Part shown: positions 1 to 62,393 of the stretch, one piece after another
How positions within the stretch are numbered: the first letter of the stretch is position 1
Layout of the letters: every line of letters begins with the position of its first letter
DNA from: Octopus sinensis
Taxonomy: Eukaryota
Reading direction: 5' to 3'
Assembly (NCBI RefSeq): GCF_006345805.1
Contig: NC_043010.1
Span: 26,536,001-26,600,000 of the forward strand
Length of the DNA: 64,000 bases
Notes under the pieces: generated by a model
Told to the model about the DNA's origin: nothing
The model's input: the letters and a program-made list of their open reading frames with translations, nothing else
The model's database searches: none
Made by a program: the position numbers and the translations under genes

Positions 1-2022
1 TGCTGAAGAAAGATCTAAACAAGGGGAATGTAATAGATAACTTTAGGCCCATCACTGCTTAATGCAGACTTGAAAATTTTGGCCAAGGTGTTAGCCAAGA
101 GGTTGGCGCTTGTCATCGAGAAACTGGTCGCCAAGGCGCAAACATGCATCGTGCTGGGCCGGAGCATCCATGACAACCTCCACGTGATGCGCTTTATCAT
201 AGACAGGGTAATTAAGAAACCTGGCATGGGTGGGGCGCTGATCAATTTGGATCAATCGAAAGCTTTCGATAGGGTAGACCATCAATACTTGGAGGCTGTC
301 CTCAGAGCGGCTGGTTTCGGTCCTGTCTTCCGCAGCTGGATAGCCGCCTTGTACAGAGGCATCCGTTCGGTAATTCGGGTAAATGGACATCTATCGAGAC
401 CTTTCGACATCGCACGTTCGGTCCATCAGGGATACCCTCTCTCGTCGCTTCTATACATATTGACTCTCGAGCCATTATTGCAGAAGCTGGCAACTCTGAG
501 GGGCATCCCACGAGAACTGGGATGCGGGACGAGCGTGTCTGCATACGCGGACGACGTCACCATCATAGTGTCTAGCCACGAGCACATCAAGCAGGTCAGC
601 GAGACACTAAAAAACTACGAAGCGGTGACAGGTCCCAACCCTACCATCACCAAACTAGAACGCATTCTCTTTCGCTTCTTGTGGAAAGGATGCGTCCCGA
701 TGGTCAGGCGATCCATTTGCTGTCAACACCCGTTAAAAGGAGGACTGGGCATGCCGTGGTTGATGATGCGCAGACACGCACTGAGACTGCGACACCTCAG
801 GCTCTACGTAGACGACGGTGAACAGGTGTGGTCGCCGTTTGTGAGGCACGCTTTCCCGCAACTCATCTCCATGACCAAACTGCAGTCGTGGATCAAAAAG
901 AGGCCAAGGAAGGGTGAATGGCACCACGAGTGTCGCGTTGCTCTCAAGCAACTCTGCCATCCCGGGTCGACCTTGAGTGACTCCAACACAACCCAAGCAT
1001 TCTATAGGGGATTAGTGGAGGGGAGGTACGACGATGAGCTCAGGGCGAACCTGGACGTTGACGAGGAATACCTGACCAGCCTGTTTGGGATGACTTTCGG
1101 GCTAGGGCCCATGGACAACTTCCAGAGATCCCTGGTCTGGTAGTGTTACCGAGAAGCGGTACCCATTCGGGGTAAGCTCTACAGACACGGCTCGAGAAAC
1201 ATGGGGCCGACCTGCCCGAGATGCGGTCAGAGCGACGAAACCATTCTGCACACACTCGTGCAGTGTCCAACAATTTCCAACCTCTGGGCTTATGTCAAAC
1301 AACTGCTATCACGTGTGGGACGAGTCGGTTTATCAGCTGAGTCTATCATCAATATTGTCACGCCTCCTTCCTTCAAACGGGAAGGAAGAGCTTGTGGCTA
1401 TGGCGAAAGAATGTATCTGGTGGATGCGTCTGAAAGGATTGGAGACGAACACTTTCCTCTCTGGTCAATCTCTCATCAACTTCTTCAAGTATCACTTGAA
1501 AAGGAAAGTGAGAGTAGAGAGGCAAGTTTCGTCTAGCAAATGTTTTAAAAAAAGATGGGTGAATGTAGCAAGGATGGCACGTATGAATGACGAAGCCACC
1601 TTGAGCATAATCCTATGAACCCAGAAATTGAAAACAGAGAGTTACCCACTTGCAAACAAATGTGGTAACATGTAACAATATTGACTGAGGTTACCATGGT
1701 CTTTTCCGTAGGCTTTTCTTCCCACGGATAAACCTTATCTGCTTCCCCCTTTACACCATACATCATGACACTGTGATACACGATCCCTATTGATTGGGTT
1801 TTTTTCCCCCTTTTTCCTTTCTTTTTTTCTCCTTTTTTTCTTTTTTCTTTTCATTTTGTTTCTTTTCCCTTCTTTTCTTTTTTTCTTCTTTCCCTCTTAC
1901 AATACTTTTTGATCGAAAACCTACCCCACTTTTTTTTCTTATTTTTTCTCCAAAAAAAGAAAAGCTCTACTTTGTAATCTGTGCCGTCTGTGTGCAGCCC
2001 TGTGTGGCTAATAAAGAAACAT
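1..2022 (+). mobile_element. Tx1/L1-clade non-LTR retrotransposon, 3' part (RT, zf-RVT-like CCHC motif, 3' UTR), decayed
   Basis: ORF 70-1143 has RT motifs (NLDQSKAFDRV, QGYPLSSLLY, AYADDV). The C-terminal CPRCGQSDETILHTLVQC follows at ~1213. There is a stop at 1141, a frameshift near 1390 and an apparent in-frame deletion near 630. The 3' UTR ends AATAAAGAAACATA, then (TCTA)n. Confidence 0.9.
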
Positions 2023-18896: not shown

Positions 18897-19349
18897 TGAA
18901 GTTAGAAAATTACTATTTTTAAATCTCACAACGTGAGATATTCAGCAAAAGTACTTTCTAGTAAAGATTGTTTGCCAACATAACATGGCAGTCCTGGTTT
19001 AGGACGAATGTTGCTGTAATTTAGCCCCAGGAGACATCGTCTCCCGCTGGCTATGCAACACGATCTGTGTCCTTATATTTTTGAACAAGGGAATCTAGTA
19101 CCCCCACTCAGCCCAAAACAATATCTGTGTATCGCGATTTCTGGGTTATTTCCTTTCATCAGCACAGAAATCGCGGTACACAGATATTGTTTTGGGCTGA
19201 GTGGGGGTGCTAGATTCCCTTGTTTGAAAATATAAGGACACAGATCGTGTTGTATAGCCAGCGGGAGACGATGTCTCCTGGGGCTAAATTACAGCAACAT
19301 TCGTCCTAAACCAGGACTGCCATGTTATGTTGGCAAACAATCTTTACTA
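18897..19349 (-). mobile_element. Retrozyme-like non-coding element forming a 391-bp near-perfect palindrome
   Basis: Arms 18959-19143 and 19165-19349 with a 21-nt loop and an HHR at the apex. Homologous to the 61.2-61.7 kb unit. Confidence 0.75.
19124..19168 (-). ncRNA. Minimal type-I hammerhead ribozyme
   Basis: Minus strand: TCTGTG-CTGATGA-AAGGAAATAACCCA-GAAA-TCGCGA-TA-CACAGA. Stem I is 6 bp, stem III is palindromic, stem II is weak (GG/CC). Confidence 0.7.
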
Positions 19350-20299
19350 CAACGATGGAGTTATTTTACTAAATTCTTCATTATTTAAAAAATTACTTGA
19401 AACACAGGTAGAGTATTTTAACAGAAATATGATAACAAAAGGGTTAATAACGATGAAGTTATTTGCTAAACTTTTTCATTATTTATAAAATTAAATGAAA
19501 CAAAAGTGGTTTTTTCCCAACAGGAATATGGCAGGAAAAATACTATTCTACTAAATTCTTTCTTATAAATTGAAACAAAGGCAGTGTATTTCAACAGAAA
19601 TACAGTAACAAACGGGTTAACTCATTCGCAAGCAAACAAGATATATTAACTCGCTTACGGCCATTGAAATAGCATCATGGGAGAGCATAGCATTGAACCG
19701 TTTATCCTAGAAACCTGCTGTGAAGTGGGTAGAGATGGAAAAAAGATATGGAAGATAACTGGAATTAGCCTTAAGCACTCCAAACAAGACAAAGGTAGAA
19801 TGTATCGATTCCATACAATGACTCAGTTTTTTTCATTGGTACTGATTACAATAATATGGATTACTTCTCTCAAATAGACCGACGCCATTATTGCATCATG
19901 TGCCAGCATAAGGAGGTGGGAGGGTGAAGACAAATAGAGTAAAGAAGAAATTTCCTCCGACTTCTGAGGTACTTAGTGACCAACACTGCTGATAAATCCA
20001 TGTAGATAGTAACATTAACTCTCGTACGAGCTAACAAGGATTGTCTGTTAATATATCCTTAAGAATTTAAACATGTTTTCTTTTGTTTCAATTTAAAAAT
20101 CTTAATTGCTTTGTCAGAGGAAAGAAAACATGGCATCCATAGCTTCCTGCAGAACCTCCAAGACTGGGTGGGGGAGGTTGGGAGTGGCAGGGAAGAGATG
20201 AGGAAGTTATGACTCATGGGATATGGAATACACCTGATCTGACTGCTTGCAATTGAGAAGACTACTAAAGGTACCTTAAGGCTAGGAGGCAAGGTGGGT

Positions 20300-44789: not shown

Positions 44790-46825
44790 AAATAATTGAA
44801 GTAATTTAAGTAATTTAATTAGGTGAAAGTTCTTTTTACCGGTTGCGCATTTGTTATGCTTATCAAAATATAAAAGAGAGATTAGAGTCTGTCTCTTATA
44901 TGTGAAAAAAAGAGGCTCCAGAGTTGTTTTGGATTTGCTTGGTTTCGCGCCTAAAATTTTGATTGGTCATTATGAAGGGGTCACGTGAATGTTTGAATGG
45001 AGTGGTGTTGGGGTAAGAAAAAAGGCTCCAGAGAAGTTAAAATTTGGCTAGTGTCCCGCCTAAATTTCTTATTGGCCATAATAAAGAGGTCACGTGAATG
45101 TTTAGAATTTTCGAAAATAGTGTTGTTGAAAATTCTATGGTTCAGGCTGGTCAGTAGACGTCATGTGGATATTTTAAATAGCTTTTTAGCGCGTAGTTAG
45201 GGAGTGTATTTTCCGCTTGACTGGATAAGTAAGTAAGTTCGTTAGAACAGGGAGAGCTGTATGTATGTATGTGTGTGCGCGCGTGTGGTGTTTATATGTA
45301 TGTTGGGGCGCGCGCGCGTGTATATATGTGTATGTGTGTGGGTACAATTTTCAATATTTATAGTTCTGCTGGCCTTGTGCCTGTATCGGGAAGCAACGTA
45401 TTTGTGTGAAGTCAATATTTACAGCCATTCCAAAAAATAGTGTTGGATGTTTTGCACCCGTATTCAATTATGTGTATGTGTGGAACCATATATTTGTGTG
45501 GGTCATGGTGTTAATATCTGGGTAAAGGTGTGGGTGTAGGGTGTGTGCAGGTGTAAGTGTGTTTGTTGTGGGTTCGTGTTAGAGGCATCTGTTTAGAAGT
45601 GGTCTGTATTTATTAATAAGGTGGGATTCCATGGTTATTCGCTGGGTATGAGTGGAATTGTCTTTAAATTTGTAGAGGGGAAAGATTCTAAAATTGGGAT
45701 GGAGTTGTGCGGCACAGGTATCAATATGTGCACTAAATGCTATTTTTCTATATTCCTGTATTTTTATTTGGGATCTGTGGACAGTCATGCGTTGGCGGAG
45801 GCTATTTTTTGTTTGGCCTATGTAGTGTTCATTACAGCCCGAGCAAGTTAAGACATTATACTAGGTTTTTGATGCGCATGTGAAGTTGTGTTTTACTGTG
45901 AAACGTTGTCCTTGTTTAAAAAGGAATTCCGGACCTTCTATTAGGTTGATGCATATACCACAGTTGGGTCTATTGCATTTGTTTACTGTGGGTTTAGTTG
46001 TTGTGGTTGGCAGTACTTTGGCATTTGTTAGGGTGGTTTTCAATGATTGGGTTGCCTTTTGCTCTTTATGATTTCGTGTGTTAGGAGGATTTGGTTCATT
46101 CTATGGTCCTTTTGTAATACAGGAATGTTCTGGAGGATGGTGTCAAAAGCTTCATTTGGAGGGGGTTGTGTGTAGAGATGTATGGTAGAGTATGGGGTTC
46201 GATGTTTGTAACAGGTTTAGGGCGTCTAAGTTCCTGCGTGCTGAGTTTTAGGGCGCGTTGGATCCCATTGTCAATTAGTGAGTGGGGTAATCCCTGCTTG
46301 TTATGTGCCCTTGAGTTCTTGTAGACGTAAGAGACGGGTGTTTTTTTGGAGACTATAGTGCAAATTCTCTTGGCTAAGTTGTAGGGAATGTTAATTTTAA
46401 CGTGTCTAGGGTGGCATGAATTGAAAGGGAGGTATTGCTTGGAGTCTGTGGGCTTGTAGTATATGTCTGTTTCTATTTTTTTGTTGTGAATTTTAATGAG
46501 GATGTCGAGGAAGGGAATTTGTTGAGGGCTGTATTCCATTGTGAAAATAATGTTTGTGTTGAGCCCATTTATAAGAGTGTGAAATTCGTTAAGCTTCTCG
46601 ACGGTTTCGGGCCAAAGGATGAAGCAGTCATCAAGATATCTCTTCCAGTTCTTCTCTATGTGTGTGTGGAGAGTGGTGCCAAATTGGTTAAGAACGTTAT
46701 TATAGAGGGTGATTTCCAGGTATCCCATGACTAAGTTGGCGTTAGTGGGAGCTGTTTTCGTTCCCATTGCCGTCCCTGATTTCTGTCTGTAGAATTTGTT
46801 GTTGAAGGTGAAGAAATTATTCTCT
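44790..46825 (-). mobile_element. Penelope-like element (RT + GIY-YIG), 5'-truncated, decayed
   Basis: Motifs GTAMGTKTAPTNANLVMG, WKRYLDDCF, IPFLDI, YYKPTD, Cys motif CNRPNCGIC, FTCAS and YIGQT. A degenerate HHR lies at 44833-44868. Confidence 0.9.
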
Positions 46826-47135
46826 AAGATTGAGCTTATGATCGTGAGGTTGTGGGTTCAATTCCTGGACAGGGCTGCGTGTTGTGTTCTTGAGCAAGAC
46901 ACTTTATTTCACATTGCTCCAGTTCACTCAGCTGTAGAAATGAATTGCAATGTCACTGGTACCAAGCTGTATCGACCTTTGCCTTTCCCTTGGATAACGT
47001 CGGTGGTGTGGAGAGGGGAGGCTGATATGCATGGGTGACTGCTGGCCTTCCATAAACAACCTTGCCCAGACTTGTGCCTCGGATGGTAACTTTCTAGGTG
47101 CAATCCCATGGTCATACATGACCAAAGGGGGTCTC
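46826..47135 (+). mobile_element. SINE family C (related copy at ~22085-22350)
   Basis: B-box-like GGTTCAATTCC followed by TGTGTTCTTGAGCAAGACACTT..CACATTGCTCC, shared by both copies. Confidence 0.65.
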
Positions 47136-52713: not shown

Positions 52714-55700
52714 CCATCTTACCCATACTCCGCACCACATCTTACCGCCTTATGTGTGCCACCATTCGCTCCAATCTCTCTAAACTACATACCATCGACT
52801 GCCTCCTCCCTCCTGCTTTTTCCACATTTTTCTCCTCTCTGCCGCCTTTCCATGCTCCAAACACGCTATGCTTCATTATCCATTTGAATTACCTCTTCCA
52901 TCAATTTCTTTCCAATACCAAACTTCGTAAACTCCAATCACTCCTCTATTCCACCACACCCGACGCCACTACCCTTCTCCCCTCCTAACCCCACTGTCCC
53001 TCCCAACAACCCCCACAAACCTCCCCAATCCCTCCCCCTCAGACCTCCACCAGCCCTACCACCCCTCCTACTCCTACTCCCATTCCATCCACCCCTCGTA
53101 CTTCTATTCCACCCACCCCTTCTCCACTTCCGTCTGTTGTTACCATTCCCCCTGATCTTCCCCTCTCTGCGGCGGAACACTCTGTCCTTGGTAGGGGTCT
53201 GCGTTTCATCCCCCTCACTCCATCCTGTAAGGAATTCCAGACGCGAGCTGATGTCCACAGCTTTGTGCACTGCGTCCGGTCGGGTGCATTTTTCCACGAC
53301 TCACCACCCGCATCCAACGATGAGGACTGCTTCACTGACCTGGGCCGCCGACCATCCCCGTGGACGCCTGCCCCCGGCCAGTTCCTAGCGGTTGATCTTT
53401 TCGCGGGCGCCTGTCAGCGTGCATTGGAGCAGTTCAACTTCTCCAGGCGCCTCAACATCTCCCCGGCCGAGCCCTTGGCTCTTCGTTCCCTCCAACGGCG
53501 CGCTGACATTATCATCAAACTGGCTGACAAGAGTGGAGCTGTGGTGGTGTGGCGCGTGGACCTCTACAGGGCCGAGGCTCTCCGCCAACTCAATGACACC
53601 TCCTTCTACTCCCCTCTGTCCTCTAACCCCACACGTAGCTACCAACAGACGGTATCCTCTACTGTCCACGACCTCATCTCGTCCTCCCATCTCCCCCACA
53701 CCGCATCCAACCTAATTGTGCAAACCCCACGCACCCCCACCATTTACTTCCTCCCCCAAATCCACAAACCCAACAACCCTGGCCGCCCCATTGTCTCCGC
53801 CTGCAACTGCCCACGGAGCTCATCTCAAAATATCTCAACCGTGTCCTTGCCCCCCTAGTGGCGTCTCTACCCTCCAACATCCACGACACCAACCATGCTC
53901 TCCGGCTGTTCAACTCTTTCTCCTTTCCTCCCGGCTCCTCCAAAATACTTTTTACAATGAACATCCAGAGTCTCTATACCATCATCCCTCACCACGAAGG
54001 ACTGCGGGCACTTCAACACTTTCTCGACCTCCGCTTCAACCCCGAACCCGACACCTCCACACTCATTCGTCTGGCTGAACTTGTCCTTTCTCTTAACTGC
54101 TTCTCGTTCGCGGGCGAGTTCTACCAACAGGTCTCGGGAGTGGCCATGGGAATGCGAATGGGCCCCAACTATGCGAACCTGTTCGTTGGCTATGTTGAGG
54201 CCCAAATATTCTCTAATTTCACTGGTCCCACTCCTGAACTATATGGTCGTTACACTGACGACATTATCGGTGCCACCTCACTCTGCCGTGAACATCTAGA
54301 TTCCTTCCTCTCTTTCGTTCAATCTTTCCATCCAGCCCTCCACTTCACCTCCACTATCTCCAACACCTCTGTCTCCTTCCTCGATATTTCGGTCAGCATT
54401 CATCACTCCACTCTTACCACCTCCATTCACTACAAACACACAGACTCACACTCATACCTAAACTTCTCTTCCTCCCACCCAAAACACACCAAGCTTTCCA
54501 TCCCCTATTCCCAATTCCTCCGTCTACATAGGCTCTGTAGTGACGACCATGACTTTGAGACTCAGCCTCTACGCATGGCTCGCCACTTCATCCTACGTGG
54601 ATACCCCCTCACCATTATCCACACCGCCCTTGCTAGAGCACGTTACGTAGACCGTGCATCTGCTCTCTCCCCCCGAACCTGCCCTGTAGTCTCCCGCCTC
54701 TCTTTTCCCCTCACTTACCACCCCACGACCCTACCTCTCCAACGCACCATTCTTTGAGCTTTCCGTCATCTCCAGTCCGACCCGTCCACTTCACACCTCT
54801 TCCCTAACCGACCCCCTCCCCTCCTTCAAACGAGCCCATAACCTACGAGACCTTTTGGTCCACAGCTCCTTCCCTGACCCTACCTTCCAACCTGGCTCGT
54901 TCCTCTGCTCCCACCCACGTTGCCACACTTGCCCTTACCTCTCCAACACCACCCTCCTCACTGGCACCCATCATCGACCCTATCGCATCATCAACTCCTT
55001 CACCTGCACCTCCAGTAATATCATCTACTGCATCTCTTGCTCTCTCTGCCATTCCCTGTACATCGGACAAACGGGACGCCGCTTGGCTGACCGGTTCGCG
55101 GAACACCTCCAAGACATCCGCCTTGCCAACGACACACCGGTCTCACGCCATTTCCACTCCATCGGTCACTCCTTGCAAGATCTGTCTGTGTTCGGTTTGT
55201 CCTTGCGCAGAGGCCATCCGGATTCCCGTTTGCGCCTTCCCTTCTTCCCTCCTCTTTCTTCTTCCTCTTCTCTCTTTCTCTGTGCTCCCTCACTCCCCTT
55301 CTCTCTATCCCCCTATCCTCCCCTCCTCCTCTCCCCTCCTTTCCATCCCCCTCCTTTTCTCCTCTCCTTCCTTCTCCCCTTCCTTCCTCCTCCTCCCTCC
55401 TCCCCCTCTTCTCTTTTCTTCTCCCCCCTCTCACCCTCCCTCTCATCTCATCTCACCCTCAACCCCTCCTTCTTTCCTCCCCCTCACTCTCACCTTTCCT
55501 CTTCTCCCTCCTCCCTCCTCTCTCCTTCTTCCCCCTCTTCCCCTCTCATCCCCTCCCACCCTCCCCTCCCCTCATCTCCCCTCCCCTCCCTCATCACCCC
55601 CTCCTCTCCTTCCTCCGCCTCCCCCTCTCATCCCTCCTCCTCCACTCTCTCTCTCACTCTCCCCCTCATCTCCCCTCTCTACACTACACCATACGACATT

Positions 55701-56312
55701 ACACATCACATCATACATACATACATATATTTCTTTATTGCCCACAAGGGGCTAAACATAGAGGGGACAAACAAGGACAGACAAAGGGATAAAGTCGATT
55801 ATATCGACCCCTGTTCGTAACTGGTGCTTAATTTATCGACCCCGAAAGGATGAAAGGCAAAGCCGACCTCAGCGGAATTTGAACTCACAGCGTAACGGCA
55901 GACAAAATACGGCTACACATTTCGCCCGGCGTGCTAATGATTCTGCCAGCTCGCCGCCATACACACGTCCAGACCTTTCATACGCACCACATACTCTCTC
56001 ATACACACACACACCCTTATGTTGGGGCGAAGTCATTTGACCCTGTTATCTCCCCTATTTTCGCTCTTGCGTCTCACGTTTGATCTCTGACTTCTGGCCA
56101 GAATCGCCATGTTGAATCGCTAGCTTCTGCACGCATTTTTTTCTCTCCTTGTTTCTCTCCATGTTTCTTTTCTGTGTATCTTTCTGTTGAAGAGCGTAGG
56201 CTCGAAACGTAAAAGACTTGTTTTATTTATATTCCTGAGTGCCATACTAATACAATTGTTTGTTTGTATTCCACCTGCCTTCGTCTTTTGTTTATTTTCA
56301 TAAAGCTTCCCG
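52714..56312 (+). mobile_element. Penelope-like element (Neptune-like: RT, CxxxxCxxC, GIY-YIG), frameshifted, with 3' pseudo-LTR
   Basis: Motifs IIIKLADKSGAVVV, PQIHKPNNPGRPIVS, GVAMG..MGPNYANLF, RYTDD, CSHPRCHTC and NIIYCISCSLCHSLYIGQT. Interrupted by a pyrimidine tract (55235-55680) and a SINE (55725-55958). Confidence 0.93.
56179..56216 (+). ncRNA. Minimal HHR of the Penelope pseudo-LTR (variant core)
   Basis: TCTTT-CTGTTGA-A-GAGC-GTAG-GCTC-GAAA-CG-TA-AAAGA, with a loop-less ACGT palindromic stem III. Confidence 0.65.
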
Positions 56313-56486
56313 ATATATATATATATATATATATATGCACATTCAAAAATAGAAAGATATATAATTCTTTTCTTGAAGGAGATACAGCTATGAATAATAA
56401 TGTATAAGTATTAGGCTAAAAAGAACTCTATGGATCATAAAAGCCTGACGGTGCAGGATTCATGTTTGAGGTGACTCAGGTATATG

Positions 56487-56527
56487 ATGCTGATGAGCTG
56501 AAATAACAGTGAAATATTGATATCCAC
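56487..56527 (+). ncRNA. Probable hammerhead motif within a 343-bp-period direct repeat
   Basis: TG-CTGATGA-GCTG-AAATAA-CAGT-GAAA-TATTGATA-TC-CA; stem I is only 2 bp. Confidence 0.45.
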
Positions 56528-57383
56528 TGTTCTAATTCACCTGTAGGGCAATTCATTTAATCTAATATGAGGTATTCAGTGTTTTTTTTTTTTTTACACT
56601 CAATGCTTTTTTACATTCAATGAATTCCACAGCCAATAAGTGTATAAACCAACCACATTCACAAAATATGTGATATTGGTAATGTTTACCAACTGCTTCT
56701 AATTCAAAATTTAATTTTATTTCACTTGTGCAGCATTTTTTCACATCAGTAGATAGATTTTTGTGCTGTCTGCATATATAAAATTCAAATCAGCGATTTG
56801 AATTTGTTTTGAGGTAACTCAGATGTATGGTGTTTACAAGCTGAAATGTCAGCAGAATATTGAGAAATACATACATTTGTACAGGAGATGATATACTGGC
56901 TTGTCCCAGAATTGAACTCATGACATTATTTTCGTGAGCTGGACTCCTTAACCAATTAGCCATGTACCATTTCTACATAAACTCTCATTTCACTCTCCTC
57001 ATTTCTCTCTTTCTCCCCCCTCCCTCCTTCTCTTTCTCTCTCTCAATATGTATATAAAAGAAGAGCCCAATCCTGGGTCAGATCTATGGTTTATTGGATT
57101 TGGTACTTATACGTAAATGGATAAATATATGTGTGTGCATGCACACACACACACACACACACATAAATGTAAGATTCAAGGATCGAGGTGTAAGAAGAAA
57201 GTCAGCTTCAAGCAATCCATTATAAATATAAAAAACAAAACTTTCAGGAATATTGTGGTTTATTGACATGGAAGGTTGTGGATTTTTTTGTATCAAATTA
57301 CAATAAGCTGAAAAGAATTCCTTTTATATTTCACGGTAGGCAACCAGGGTTGCTGAGTACAAGAATAAGAATACAAGAATTAA

Positions 57384-60955: not shown

Positions 60956-61130
60956 TACATGGTTGTATATGTATGTATGTGTGTCTGTGTTTGTCCCTCA
61001 CAACATCCCTTGACAATTGATGCTGGTGTGTTTACATCCCCATAACTTAGCGTTTCGGCAAAAGAAACTGATAGAATAAGTAGTAGGCTTACATAGAATA
61101 AATAAAAATATATATATATATACATATATA

Positions 61131-61731
61131 TAGAATTGTTGTATACTGTCAATTTAACGTGACAGTAGGGGATTACACCACCGCTGTTTAGCCCTAGGAA
61201 GCATCGACGCTTCCTGTCGGAAATGTGTCGAAGCCGACAGGAAGCGTCGATGCTTCCTAGGCTAAACAGCGGTGGTGTAATCCCCTACTGTCACGTTAAA
61301 TTGACAGTATACAATCATTCTATCGCCCCACCACCGTACATATCTCTATGAGATATTTAGAAATTTAATATTTCTGATTTTGGTGATCAGTGAATAAACT
61401 TCACTGAAAATTAGATATATATATTTACGAAGTCGAGACAGATATCTGCACCTAGCAGGCTTCTGCTACTCTAGACCAATGATGGGCAAAGATCCTGAAA
61501 CATGCGTGTCTGTAGATGCAGGCCTAGCTGTTGGGGATATTTGTCTCCCCTTCGTAAATATATAAGGACACAGGAAATGTGTCGAAGCCGACAGGAAGTG
61601 TCGATGCTTCCTAGGGCTAAACAGCGGTGGTGTAATCCCCTACTGTCACGTTAAATTGACAGTATACAACTATTCTATTGCCCCACCACCGTACATATCT
61701 CTATGAGATATTTAGAAATTTAATATCTCTG

Positions 61732-61734
<3 letters not shown>
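61131..61734 (+). mobile_element. Retrozyme-like element: 354-bp highly structured monomer, ~1.45 tandem copies plus a 5' inverted segment
   Basis: Direct repeats start at 61219 and 61573. 61131-61220 inverts 61234-61322. A degenerate HHR lies at 61470-61516, and the element is flanked by (TA)n. Confidence 0.78.
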
Positions 61735-61783
<49 letters not shown>

Positions 61784-61827
61784 TACAGTGATGTACTTGA
61801 CCTGACCTAGATCATGTACTGAAATAA

Positions 61828-62019
61828 AAACAATTGCAGCGTAGAAGGTGTTTATAAGCCATTTAAGAACACACAAAAAACTGTTAGATTCACTTAAACA
61901 TTTAAATTTAATTTGTCAAATTATTTTCATCGCTTTTTAAATTTAAAGGTTGAAGTGAATCTAACGGTTTTTGTGTGCTTTTAAATGGCTTATAAACACT
62001 TTCCATGATGTAATTGTTT
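61828..62019. repeat. Fold-back inverted repeat between (TA)n tracts
   Basis: Arms ~61828-61910 and ~61938-62019. Confidence 0.8.
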
Positions 62020-62393
62020 ATATATATATTTATGTATATTCTTTTATTCTTTTACTTGTTTCAGCCATTTCACTGTGGCCATGCTGGAGCATCGCCTTTA
62101 GTTGAGCAAATCGATCCCAGGACTTATTCTTTGCAAGCCTATCACTTATTCTATCGGTCACTTTTGCTGACCCACTAGATTACGAATACTTTGACACGCC
62201 ACCATCAGTTGTCAAGCGATGGTGGGAGGATAAACACAGACACCCAAACACACACACTCACATATATATACAATGGGGTTTGATCAGCCTGAGGGTATAG
62301 TAGAAAACACTTGCCCATGGTGCCATGCAGTAGGACTGAACCCAGAACCATGTTGTTGGTAAGCAAGCTACTTACCACACAGCCACTCCTGTG

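What the first reader, a model, noticed from the sequence alone, without database searches (positions are those of the whole stretch)
61131..61734. 354-nt monomer that folds like a branched circular RNA (candidate retrozyme)
The unit 61219-61572 repeats in tandem and is extensively self-complementary. Stems include AGCC..GGAAGC/GCTTCC..GGCT, CGGTGGTG/CACCACCG enclosing TACTGTCA/TGACAGTA, ATATCTC/GAGATAT, AGAAAT/ATTTCT and TCAGTGAA/TTCACTGA. A long arm (ATATTTACGAAG..GAGACAGATATC / GATATTTGTCTC..CTTCGTAAATAT) has an HHR-like motif at its apex (TCTAGA-CCAATGA..GAAA-CATGCGTG-TC-TGTAGA). The GACAC/GTGTC hairpin spans the monomer junction, as expected for a circular or multimeric template. The core in this copy deviates from CUGAUGA at two positions, so this copy may be inactive.
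Basis: partly seen in the sequence, partly recalled or inferred. Interest (0 to 1): 0.85.

Follow-up and report, generated by a model that had tools for sequence, protein, structure and literature searches.

The report
Hammerhead retrozyme spread by Penelope machinery
This is a likely dead copy of a small repeat, scattered through an animal genome, that carries a hammerhead self-cutting RNA motif; its insertion scars suggest it is copied by Penelope-type retrotransposon enzymes, and many sister copies are hit at one fixed spot by a second, LINE-type retrotransposon.

Summary
The locus is not a tandem array. It is one insertion (61130-61733): an inverted 91-nt arm, then 1.45 units of a 354-nt repeat, with a 12-bp target duplication in (TA)n. 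It has only one hammerhead. The family is dispersed (177 exact core matches) and has sister families. Helices I-III of a type I hammerhead covary across subfamilies. U4C is a family trait (70 of 84 units); G5A and a broken helix I pair are decay in this copy. Across 182 insertions, 3' ends fall at two fixed sites about 50 nt apart. In 56 of 57 inverted insertions with both ends at these sites, one arm ends at each, usually with a ~12-bp duplication (26 of 30). This is the Penelope-like element (PLE) footprint, so it is a non-LTR retrozyme likely mobilised by a PLE primed from both nicked strands. Circular RNA, cleavage and the partner PLE are not shown. A Tx1-like LINE and its ORF1-only derivative insert at one site just upstream of the ribozyme.

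The parts
61120..61131 (+). Left target-site duplication, 12 bp, in a (TA)n tract; overlaps the element end by 2 nt (AT)
   Evidence: Identical to 61732-61743, including the one C that breaks the TA run
61130..61220 (-). Inverted 5'-truncated arm (unit positions 16-105); its outer end is the 'short' (S) 3' end site
   Evidence: BLAST 97-98% to the unit and its repeat; S ends at 93-108 in 88 of 193 family-A 3' ends
61219..61572 (+). First 354-nt unit; its start is a 5' truncation joined to the inverted arm by a 2-nt GG overlap
   Evidence: genome-wide family
61418..61564 (+). Long self-complementary arm carrying the ribozyme at its tip
   Evidence: predicted fold; same arm in sister family B
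61444..61460 (+). Site used by the Tx1-like LINE in other copies (empty in this copy)
61470..61516 (+). Type I hammerhead: helix I 61470-75/61511-16, core 61476-82, helix II 61483-96, GAAA 61497-500, helix III with near-palindromic loop 61500-09, predicted cut after 61510. G5 changed to A at 61478; helix I pair broken at 61512
   Evidence: covariation on 23 subfamily representatives; column tallies
61567..61583 (+). GACAC/GTGTC hairpin, shared by families A and B and by a relative at about 19 kb
   Evidence: 1368 exact matches to the shared arm-end-plus-hairpin motif, control 0
61573..61733 (+). Partial second unit (positions 1-160); its end is the 'long' (L) 3' end site. 61679-61733 is the PLE-type tail
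   Evidence: L ends at 148-167 in 81 of 193 family-A 3' ends
61732..61743 (+). Right target-site duplication, 12 bp

Best explanation
This is a decayed copy of a non-coding, hammerhead-bearing retroelement (non-LTR retrozyme) that is likely copied into AT-rich DNA by the enzyme of a Penelope-like element. Shown: a dispersed family of ~354-nt units; a covarying type I hammerhead; two fixed 3' ends (S and L) about 50 nt apart; head-to-head insertions with one S and one L end; ~12-bp duplications; both arms from the same subfamily. Inferred cycle: (1) a source locus with two or more ribozymes is transcribed and cut to a unit-length RNA, probably as a ribozyme dimer, and ligated to a circle (about 55% likely; otherwise the template is an uncut multimer). 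(2) A PLE RT/GIY-YIG protein binds the hairpin cluster at unit positions 1-160 and nicks both target strands about 12 nt apart. (3) Each nick primes cDNA internally, one at S and one at L; both run upstream, often through the cut site, stop at random, and join by microhomology (about 70% likely). This copy has one ribozyme with G5A and a broken helix I, so it is predicted to be a dead end.
For: Family: 40 scored places of 2723 candidates; 177 exact core-pattern matches, control 0. Ribozyme: 92% of cells paired; 11 of 13 pairs change on both sides; 0 of 500 shuffles reach the covariation score; slid controls are far lower. U3-A8 core variants occur in relatives. Ends: 221 of 255 3' ends at S or L in two families. 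Inverted insertions with both ends at these sites: 56 S+L, 1 L+L, 0 S+S. Duplication of 10 bp or more in 26 of 30 inverted versus 3 of 44 single-arm insertions outside microsatellites, and in 4 of 400 shuffled flank pairs. Opposite arms differ at 10.5% of subfamily sites versus 13.3% within an arm and 43.6% for random pairs. In 33 of 56, neither arm contains the other, which excludes fold-back copying for those. Flanks of 3' ends are 87% AT versus 63% background. Literature match: inverted pLTR, one-sided tail and 8-10-bp TSD (PMC3846280, PMC8557442); two internal RT starts and nicking plus extension of both strands (PMC11167929). The genome holds PLEs with RT and GIY-YIG.
Against: No autonomous PLE with a homologous terminal repeat among the 30 GIY-YIG loci examined, of 150 listed. 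No cleavage or circle is shown. 5' ends do not clearly pile up at the cut site. The dominant core is U4C, which is reported to lower activity in vitro (PMC3088659), and the first pair of helix II is unpaired in 13 of 23 representatives, so cleavage may be weak. In the PLE tested in vitro, the ribozyme was not needed for insertion (PMC11167929). The tail here (~50 nt) is longer than the 30-40 nt reported. The covariation set was hand-picked and related by descent. Most loci were selected by similarity or motif, so counts are not a random sample.
Confidence: 0.78

Rival explanations
1. Same PLE mobilisation, but the template is an uncut linear multimer or read-through RNA; the ribozyme is weak or needs protein, and circles play no part.
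For: 17 of 23 arms that reach the cut site run through it, in loci picked without ribozyme motifs. U4C core and weak helix II base. Ribozyme dispensable for PAc insertion in vitro (PMC11167929); 8 of 9 Xenopus dimers did not cleave (10.64898/2026.07.22.740005).
Against: The ribozyme fold is kept by compensatory change across subfamilies. Long arrays that could supply multimers are rare in the sample: the longest arm is 3.2 units among 186, and 10 of 222 arms cross two cut sites.
Confidence: 0.35
2. The inverted arm arises by self-priming or fold-back copying of a single cDNA, not by priming from both target strands.
For: Proposed for rotifer PLEs (PMC3846280). Both arms share subfamily marks. 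In this copy the short arm lies within the long arm.
Against: In 33 of 56 inverted insertions each arm has sequence the other lacks. Junctions are variable overlaps or gaps, not a fixed hairpin. The duplication goes with inversion.
Confidence: 0.1
3. A SINE-like element moved by a LINE (for example the Tx1-like family found inside it), with L1-type twin-priming inversions.
For: Variable-length duplications, 5' truncation, and physical association with a LINE.
Against: No poly(A) or LINE-like 3' tail at S/L ends. Both arms repeat the same 3' segment, unlike twin priming (recalled). The LINE sits inside the unit with its own 14-17-bp duplication, so the retrozyme is its target.
Confidence: 0.05
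4. A DNA fold-back element or MITE whose self-complementarity mimics an RNA structure.
For: Terminal inverted repeats of ~90 nt; a neighbouring palindrome folds equally well.
Against: Inverted arms vary in length and are absent from most copies; 5' truncation is the rule; duplications are ~12 bp and tied to inversion; a conserved catalytic core with covarying helices is present.
Confidence: 0.02

Closest known systems
Metazoan non-LTR retrozymes (coral, mussel 350-390 nt, axolotl Rtz353; PMC7229834)
   Same: Non-coding unit of about 350 nt, GC under 50%, highly self-paired, one type I hammerhead per unit with a 6-bp helix I, short helix III and palindromic loop, TSD longer than 4 bp. Axolotl HHR_Amex2 also has a U-U at the base of helix II.
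   Different: Mostly dispersed 0.4-1.5-mers with inverted arms rather than arrays; family-wide U4C core in the younger A subfamilies; circles not shown here.
Endonuclease-bearing Penelope-like elements and their pLTRs (PMC3846280, PMC8557442, PMC11167929); retrozymes as non-autonomous PLE derivatives (10.64898/2026.07.22.740005)
   Same: Partial tandem, inverted 5'-truncated copy, tail on one end only, two internal 3' end sites, AT/(TA)n targets, TSD near 10 bp.
   Different: No ORF; canonical-size rather than minimal hammerhead; ~50-nt tail; no homologous autonomous pLTR found among 30 loci.
Target-specific Tx1-clade LINEs (Tx1L in Tx1D, Tx1-Mar in Mariner, Keno in U2; PMC4494074)
   Same: APE-RT LINE with an ORF1 zinc knuckle, inserting at a fixed site of a multicopy repeat in far more than the 20% threshold used in that paper.
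   Different: The target is a ribozyme retroelement, which is not among the targets in the passages I saw; clade not confirmed by a tree.

Membership tests
Type I hammerhead ribozyme | Core boxes C3-A9, G12-A15.1 and U16.1-H17 in type I order | tested here: met
   Family: position 4 is C in 70 and T in 13 of 84 units; other core positions near-invariant. This copy fails at G5 (A, shared by 4 of 84).
Type I hammerhead ribozyme | Three helices supported by covariation | tested here: met
   11 of 13 pairs with two-sided change, 0 of 500 shuffles; the 10.1-11.1 pair is unpaired in 13 of 23.
Type I hammerhead ribozyme | Self-cleavage | not testable with these tools
   Needs in vitro transcription. 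5' ends near the cut site were inconclusive.
Non-LTR retrozyme | Non-coding unit of 150-450 nt with one type I HHR; no LTR, PBS or PPT | tested here: met
   354 nt (A) and 352 nt (B); no ORF of 150 aa or more over the element. PBS and PPT were not searched for explicitly.
Non-LTR retrozyme | Tandem units with at least two intact HHRs at some loci | tested here: met
   10 of 222 arms cross two cut sites, e.g. L016, L138; not met by the window copy.
Non-LTR retrozyme | Stable self-paired circular fold | tested here: met
   Circular z -8.9; -15.6, -6.1 and -7.6 for other real units.
Non-LTR retrozyme | Expressed as unit-length circular RNA | tested here: inconclusive
   Only assembled contigs were available; they cannot tell a circle from a genomic partial tandem.
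PLE-mobilised non-autonomous element | Partial tandem plus inverted 5'-truncated copy, with a tail on one end | tested here: met
   56 S+L of 57.
PLE-mobilised non-autonomous element | AT-rich or (TA)n target with short TSD | tested here: met
   87% AT flanks; 87 of 186 beside (TA)5; TSD mode 12 bp.
PLE-mobilised non-autonomous element | Terminal sequence shared with an autonomous PLE | tested here: inconclusive
   None in 30 of 150 listed GIY-YIG loci or 14 longer stretches; most PLE families were not examined.
DNA MITE | Fixed short TIRs, fixed TSD, uniform length | tested here: not met
   Variable arms, frequent single-arm copies, no fixed ends on the 5' side.
Target-specific Tx1-clade LINE (the inserted element) | APE + RT + zf-RVT ORF2, ORF1 zinc knuckle | tested here: met
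   Pfam; nearest Atlas clusters L1 ORF2 and Tx1 149 kDa at 0.96-0.97.
Target-specific Tx1-clade LINE (the inserted element) | More than 20% of copies flanked by one repeat, with own TSD | tested here: met
   19 of 30 and 18 of 30; 14-17-bp TSDs on 5'-truncated copies. The queries came from retrozyme-embedded copies.
Target-specific Tx1-clade LINE (the inserted element) | RT phylogeny within Tx1 | not tested
   No reference set was on hand.

The most novel reading that the evidence does not exclude
A three-tier parasite system: a PLE dimer reads one small RNA circle from two fixed start sites at once, one per nicked strand, and a Tx1-like LINE lineage has specialised on the retrozyme as its landing site just upstream of the ribozyme, sometimes riding along in PLE-made copies (L222). 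The family would be a minimal natural substrate that explains how PLE inverted repeats and one-sided tails form.
Probability: 0.4. Interest if true: 0.8.

Novelty: new member of a known kind. Interest (0 to 1): 0.55.

Why it matters
Which enzyme moves animal retrozymes, and how PLEs make their inverted, one-tailed insertions, are both open questions in the papers read. This family gives a quantified genomic footprint: one end at each of two sites, a ~12-bp stagger, one template lineage, and no fold-back. That can be tested directly with a 354-nt RNA and a purified PLE protein. A LINE that targets a ribozyme retroelement would be a new target class for site-specific retrotransposons. The locus itself is a dead copy with no sign of host function.

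Tried and rejected
Two different RNAs as templates for the two arms: suggested by a few loci with unlike helix II variants, rejected by the diagnostic-site test. Pile-up of 5' ends at the ribozyme cut: 5-6 ends near it, several explained by microhomology, inconclusive. Search for the partner PLE: no homology in 30 GIY-YIG loci; PLE ORFs near some copies (L098, L187) are not shown to be part of the same insertion. L163 as a PLE-truncated LINE composite: dropped, because its LINE 3' end is not followed by family A. Sequencing runs: no RNA holder listed on record. Contigs of four runs guessed to be RNA cover the unit and show wrap-around joints, but these are expected from genomic partial tandems and depth cannot be ranked. 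Rfam: only hairpin-driven miRNA hits below threshold over the element. Earlier scan notes: none. Longer flanks for 40 LINE loci were not obtained, so the share of LINE copies with an intact 5' junction is open.

Full report
Setting. The window lies in a 2.7-Gb animal genome rich in (TA)n. It looks like a cephalopod genome to me; that is a recalled impression and was not tested.

Observation. The unit 61219-61572 repeats for 161 nt at 61573-61733 (96%), and 61130-61220 is an inverted copy of unit positions 16-105. The unit folds at -133.4 kcal/mol against -81.9 +/- 5.0 for shuffles; circular z is -8.9. A nearby palindrome scores z -11.8, so the fold alone proves little. The insertion is flanked by a 12-bp duplication, 61120-61131 and 61732-61743, and the arms meet at a 2-nt overlap. 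The locus holds one ribozyme and so could not release a unit-length RNA.

Family. A genome search scored 40 of 2723 candidate places, the best at 86-97% identity. A 30-nt core pattern has 177 exact matches, control 0. A sister family B (352 nt, 97-99% among copies, 1879 candidates) has the same series of hairpins and the same ribozyme position. A motif shared by both has 1368 exact matches. These counts are lower bounds.

Ribozyme. In 23 hand-picked subfamily representatives, helices I, II and III pair in 92% of cells, and 11 of 13 pairs change on both sides. No shuffle of 500 reaches the covariation score, and slid registers fall to 16-51% paired. Relatedness inflates such scores, but both controls agree. 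Helix I has 6 bp, loop 2 has 5-7 nt, and helix III is short with a near-palindromic loop, which fits dimeric cleavage as described in PMC4209133 (parts 1-2 of 4 read). The first pair of helix II is unpaired in 13 of 23; axolotl HHR_Amex2 has a U-U there and still cleaves, better as a dimer (PMC7229834, parts 2-4 of 6 read). In close family-A units, position 4 is C in 70 and T in 13 of 84. G5 is kept in 80 of 84 and helix I position 1.2 is C in 81 of 84; the window copy has lost both. U4C lowers activity in vitro yet supports viroid infectivity (PMC3088659, passages). That G5 is needed is recalled knowledge; a paper search for it returned nothing.

Insertion footprint. After removing duplicates, 182 insertions remained (141 A, 41 B), from loci chosen by similarity or motif. 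Of 255 3' ends, 221 lie at two sites: S (about 105 in A, 111 in B) and L (about 160 and 154). Of 73 inverted insertions, 57 have both ends at these sites: 56 S+L, 1 L+L, 0 S+S; the other 16 have at least one end elsewhere. Outside microsatellites, a duplication of 10 bp or more flanks 26 of 30 inverted and 3 of 44 single-arm insertions; the shuffled-flank rate is 4 of 400. Opposite arms match at subfamily sites as well as units of one arm do (10.5% versus 13.3% different; random pairs 43.6%), so both come from one template lineage. In 33 of 56, neither arm contains the other, which excludes fold-back copying for those. Of 222 arms, 146 run through the cut site and 10 through two; among loci picked without ribozyme motifs, 17 of 23 arms that reach it pass it.

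Mechanism. Inverted 5'-truncated copies, a one-sided tail and 8-10-bp TSDs are described for PLEs (PMC3846280 and PMC8557442, passages). The anole PLE nicks and extends both strands of AT-rich DNA, starts at two internal sites that define the tail, and is predicted to be a dimer (PMC11167929, parts 1-2 of 4 read). The simplest reading is double target-primed reverse transcription: two nicks about 12 nt apart, one priming at S and one at L, with the cDNAs joined by microhomology. This is inferred. Because the ribozyme is conserved and arms cross its cut site, a ligated circle is the likelier template, but an uncut multimer remains open. A 2026 preprint argues from co-occurrence and pLTR homology that animal retrozymes are non-autonomous PLE derivatives (10.64898/2026.07.22.740005, parts 1-3 of 5 read, supplements not seen). 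The genome has many RT plus GIY-YIG elements with their own hammerheads, but none of the 30 loci examined shares sequence with this family.

A LINE that targets the family. Nine sister copies carry an insert at unit positions 226-242: a 5.4-kb LINE (APE, RT, zf-RVT) in one and a 1.6-kb ORF1-only element in eight, both with an AATAAAG-type 3' end and a 14-17-bp duplication that matches the host subfamily. Searching from the LINE side, 19 of the first 30 of 89 ORF1-only 3' ends, and 18 of the best 30 of 43 LINE 3' ends, run into a retrozyme of family A or B. The queries came from embedded copies, which favours this result, and 7 of these 60 loci were already known from the retrozyme side. 5'-truncated LINE copies with their own duplications (L238, L268, L269) show true insertion into the target; one locus (L222) has LINE 3' sequence in both inverted arms, suggesting a composite moved by the PLE route. 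Nearest Atlas clusters are L1 ORF2 and Tx1; no tree was built. Known Tx1 targets include DNA transposons, LTR elements, satellites, snRNA genes and microsatellites (PMC4494074, passages). The site is empty in the window copy.

Prior description. Searches for octopus or cephalopod with hammerhead or retrozyme, and for Tx1 with Penelope or pLTR, listed no paper on this family or on a retrozyme-targeting LINE; I saw only the listings. Repeat libraries and paper supplements were not seen and may list it.

Verdict. A real, decayed member of a new non-LTR retrozyme family with a clear PLE footprint. It works like a non-autonomous PLE; membership of the retrozymes is met on sequence and structure and untested on cleavage and circles. 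New member of a known kind, interest 0.55.

Noticed in passing
window 18956-19352: A head-to-head inverted copy (93% self-complementary) of a third relative of the same superfamily, with a CUGAUGA-core hammerhead on the minus strand near 19120-19170 and the GACAC hairpin.
   Followed up: partly
window 61824-62023: A 200-nt palindromic element (80% self-complementary), MITE-like, just right of the finding; folds at z -11.8.
   Followed up: partly
window 56477-56541: Weak Rfam Hammerhead_HH9 hit (20.5 bits, E 0.25, below the gathering score), with CUGAUGA and GAAA boxes; possibly another degenerate ribozyme.
   Followed up: no
window 52900-55800 (+) and 46096-46857 (-): Broken PLE-like ORFs: RT and GIY-YIG-like motifs in the first, RT in the second (identified by eye). 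No homology to the retrozyme.
   Followed up: no
window 37-1618 (+): LINE RT fragments resembling the retrozyme-targeting LINE's ORF2 by eye.
   Followed up: no
L200:1783-7237; L204:2067-3680: Full-length Tx1-like LINE and ORF1-only derivative inserted at one site of the retrozyme; some loci appear to hold tandem LINE insertions at that site (L224, L229, L233, L267).
   Followed up: yes
L098 and L038, downstream of the GIY-YIG ORF: An autonomous PLE family whose 3' hammerhead has a CCGAAGA or CUGAAGA core and a U-U at the base of helix II, ending about 150 nt after the cut site; a partner candidate by style only, with no sequence homology.
   Followed up: partly
L039, L041, L042, L051 and others: The commonest GIY-YIG PLE family here ends in a U3-A8 (UUGAUAA) hammerhead about 55 nt before its 3' end.
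   Followed up: no
L169:1322-1808: Short internal tandem running from about the cut site to the S site twice, as if RT re-primed at S after reaching a cleaved 5' end; a single case with microhomology.
   Followed up: partly
L053, L064, L272: Further small hammerhead-bearing repeat families unrelated in sequence to A and B.
   Followed up: no
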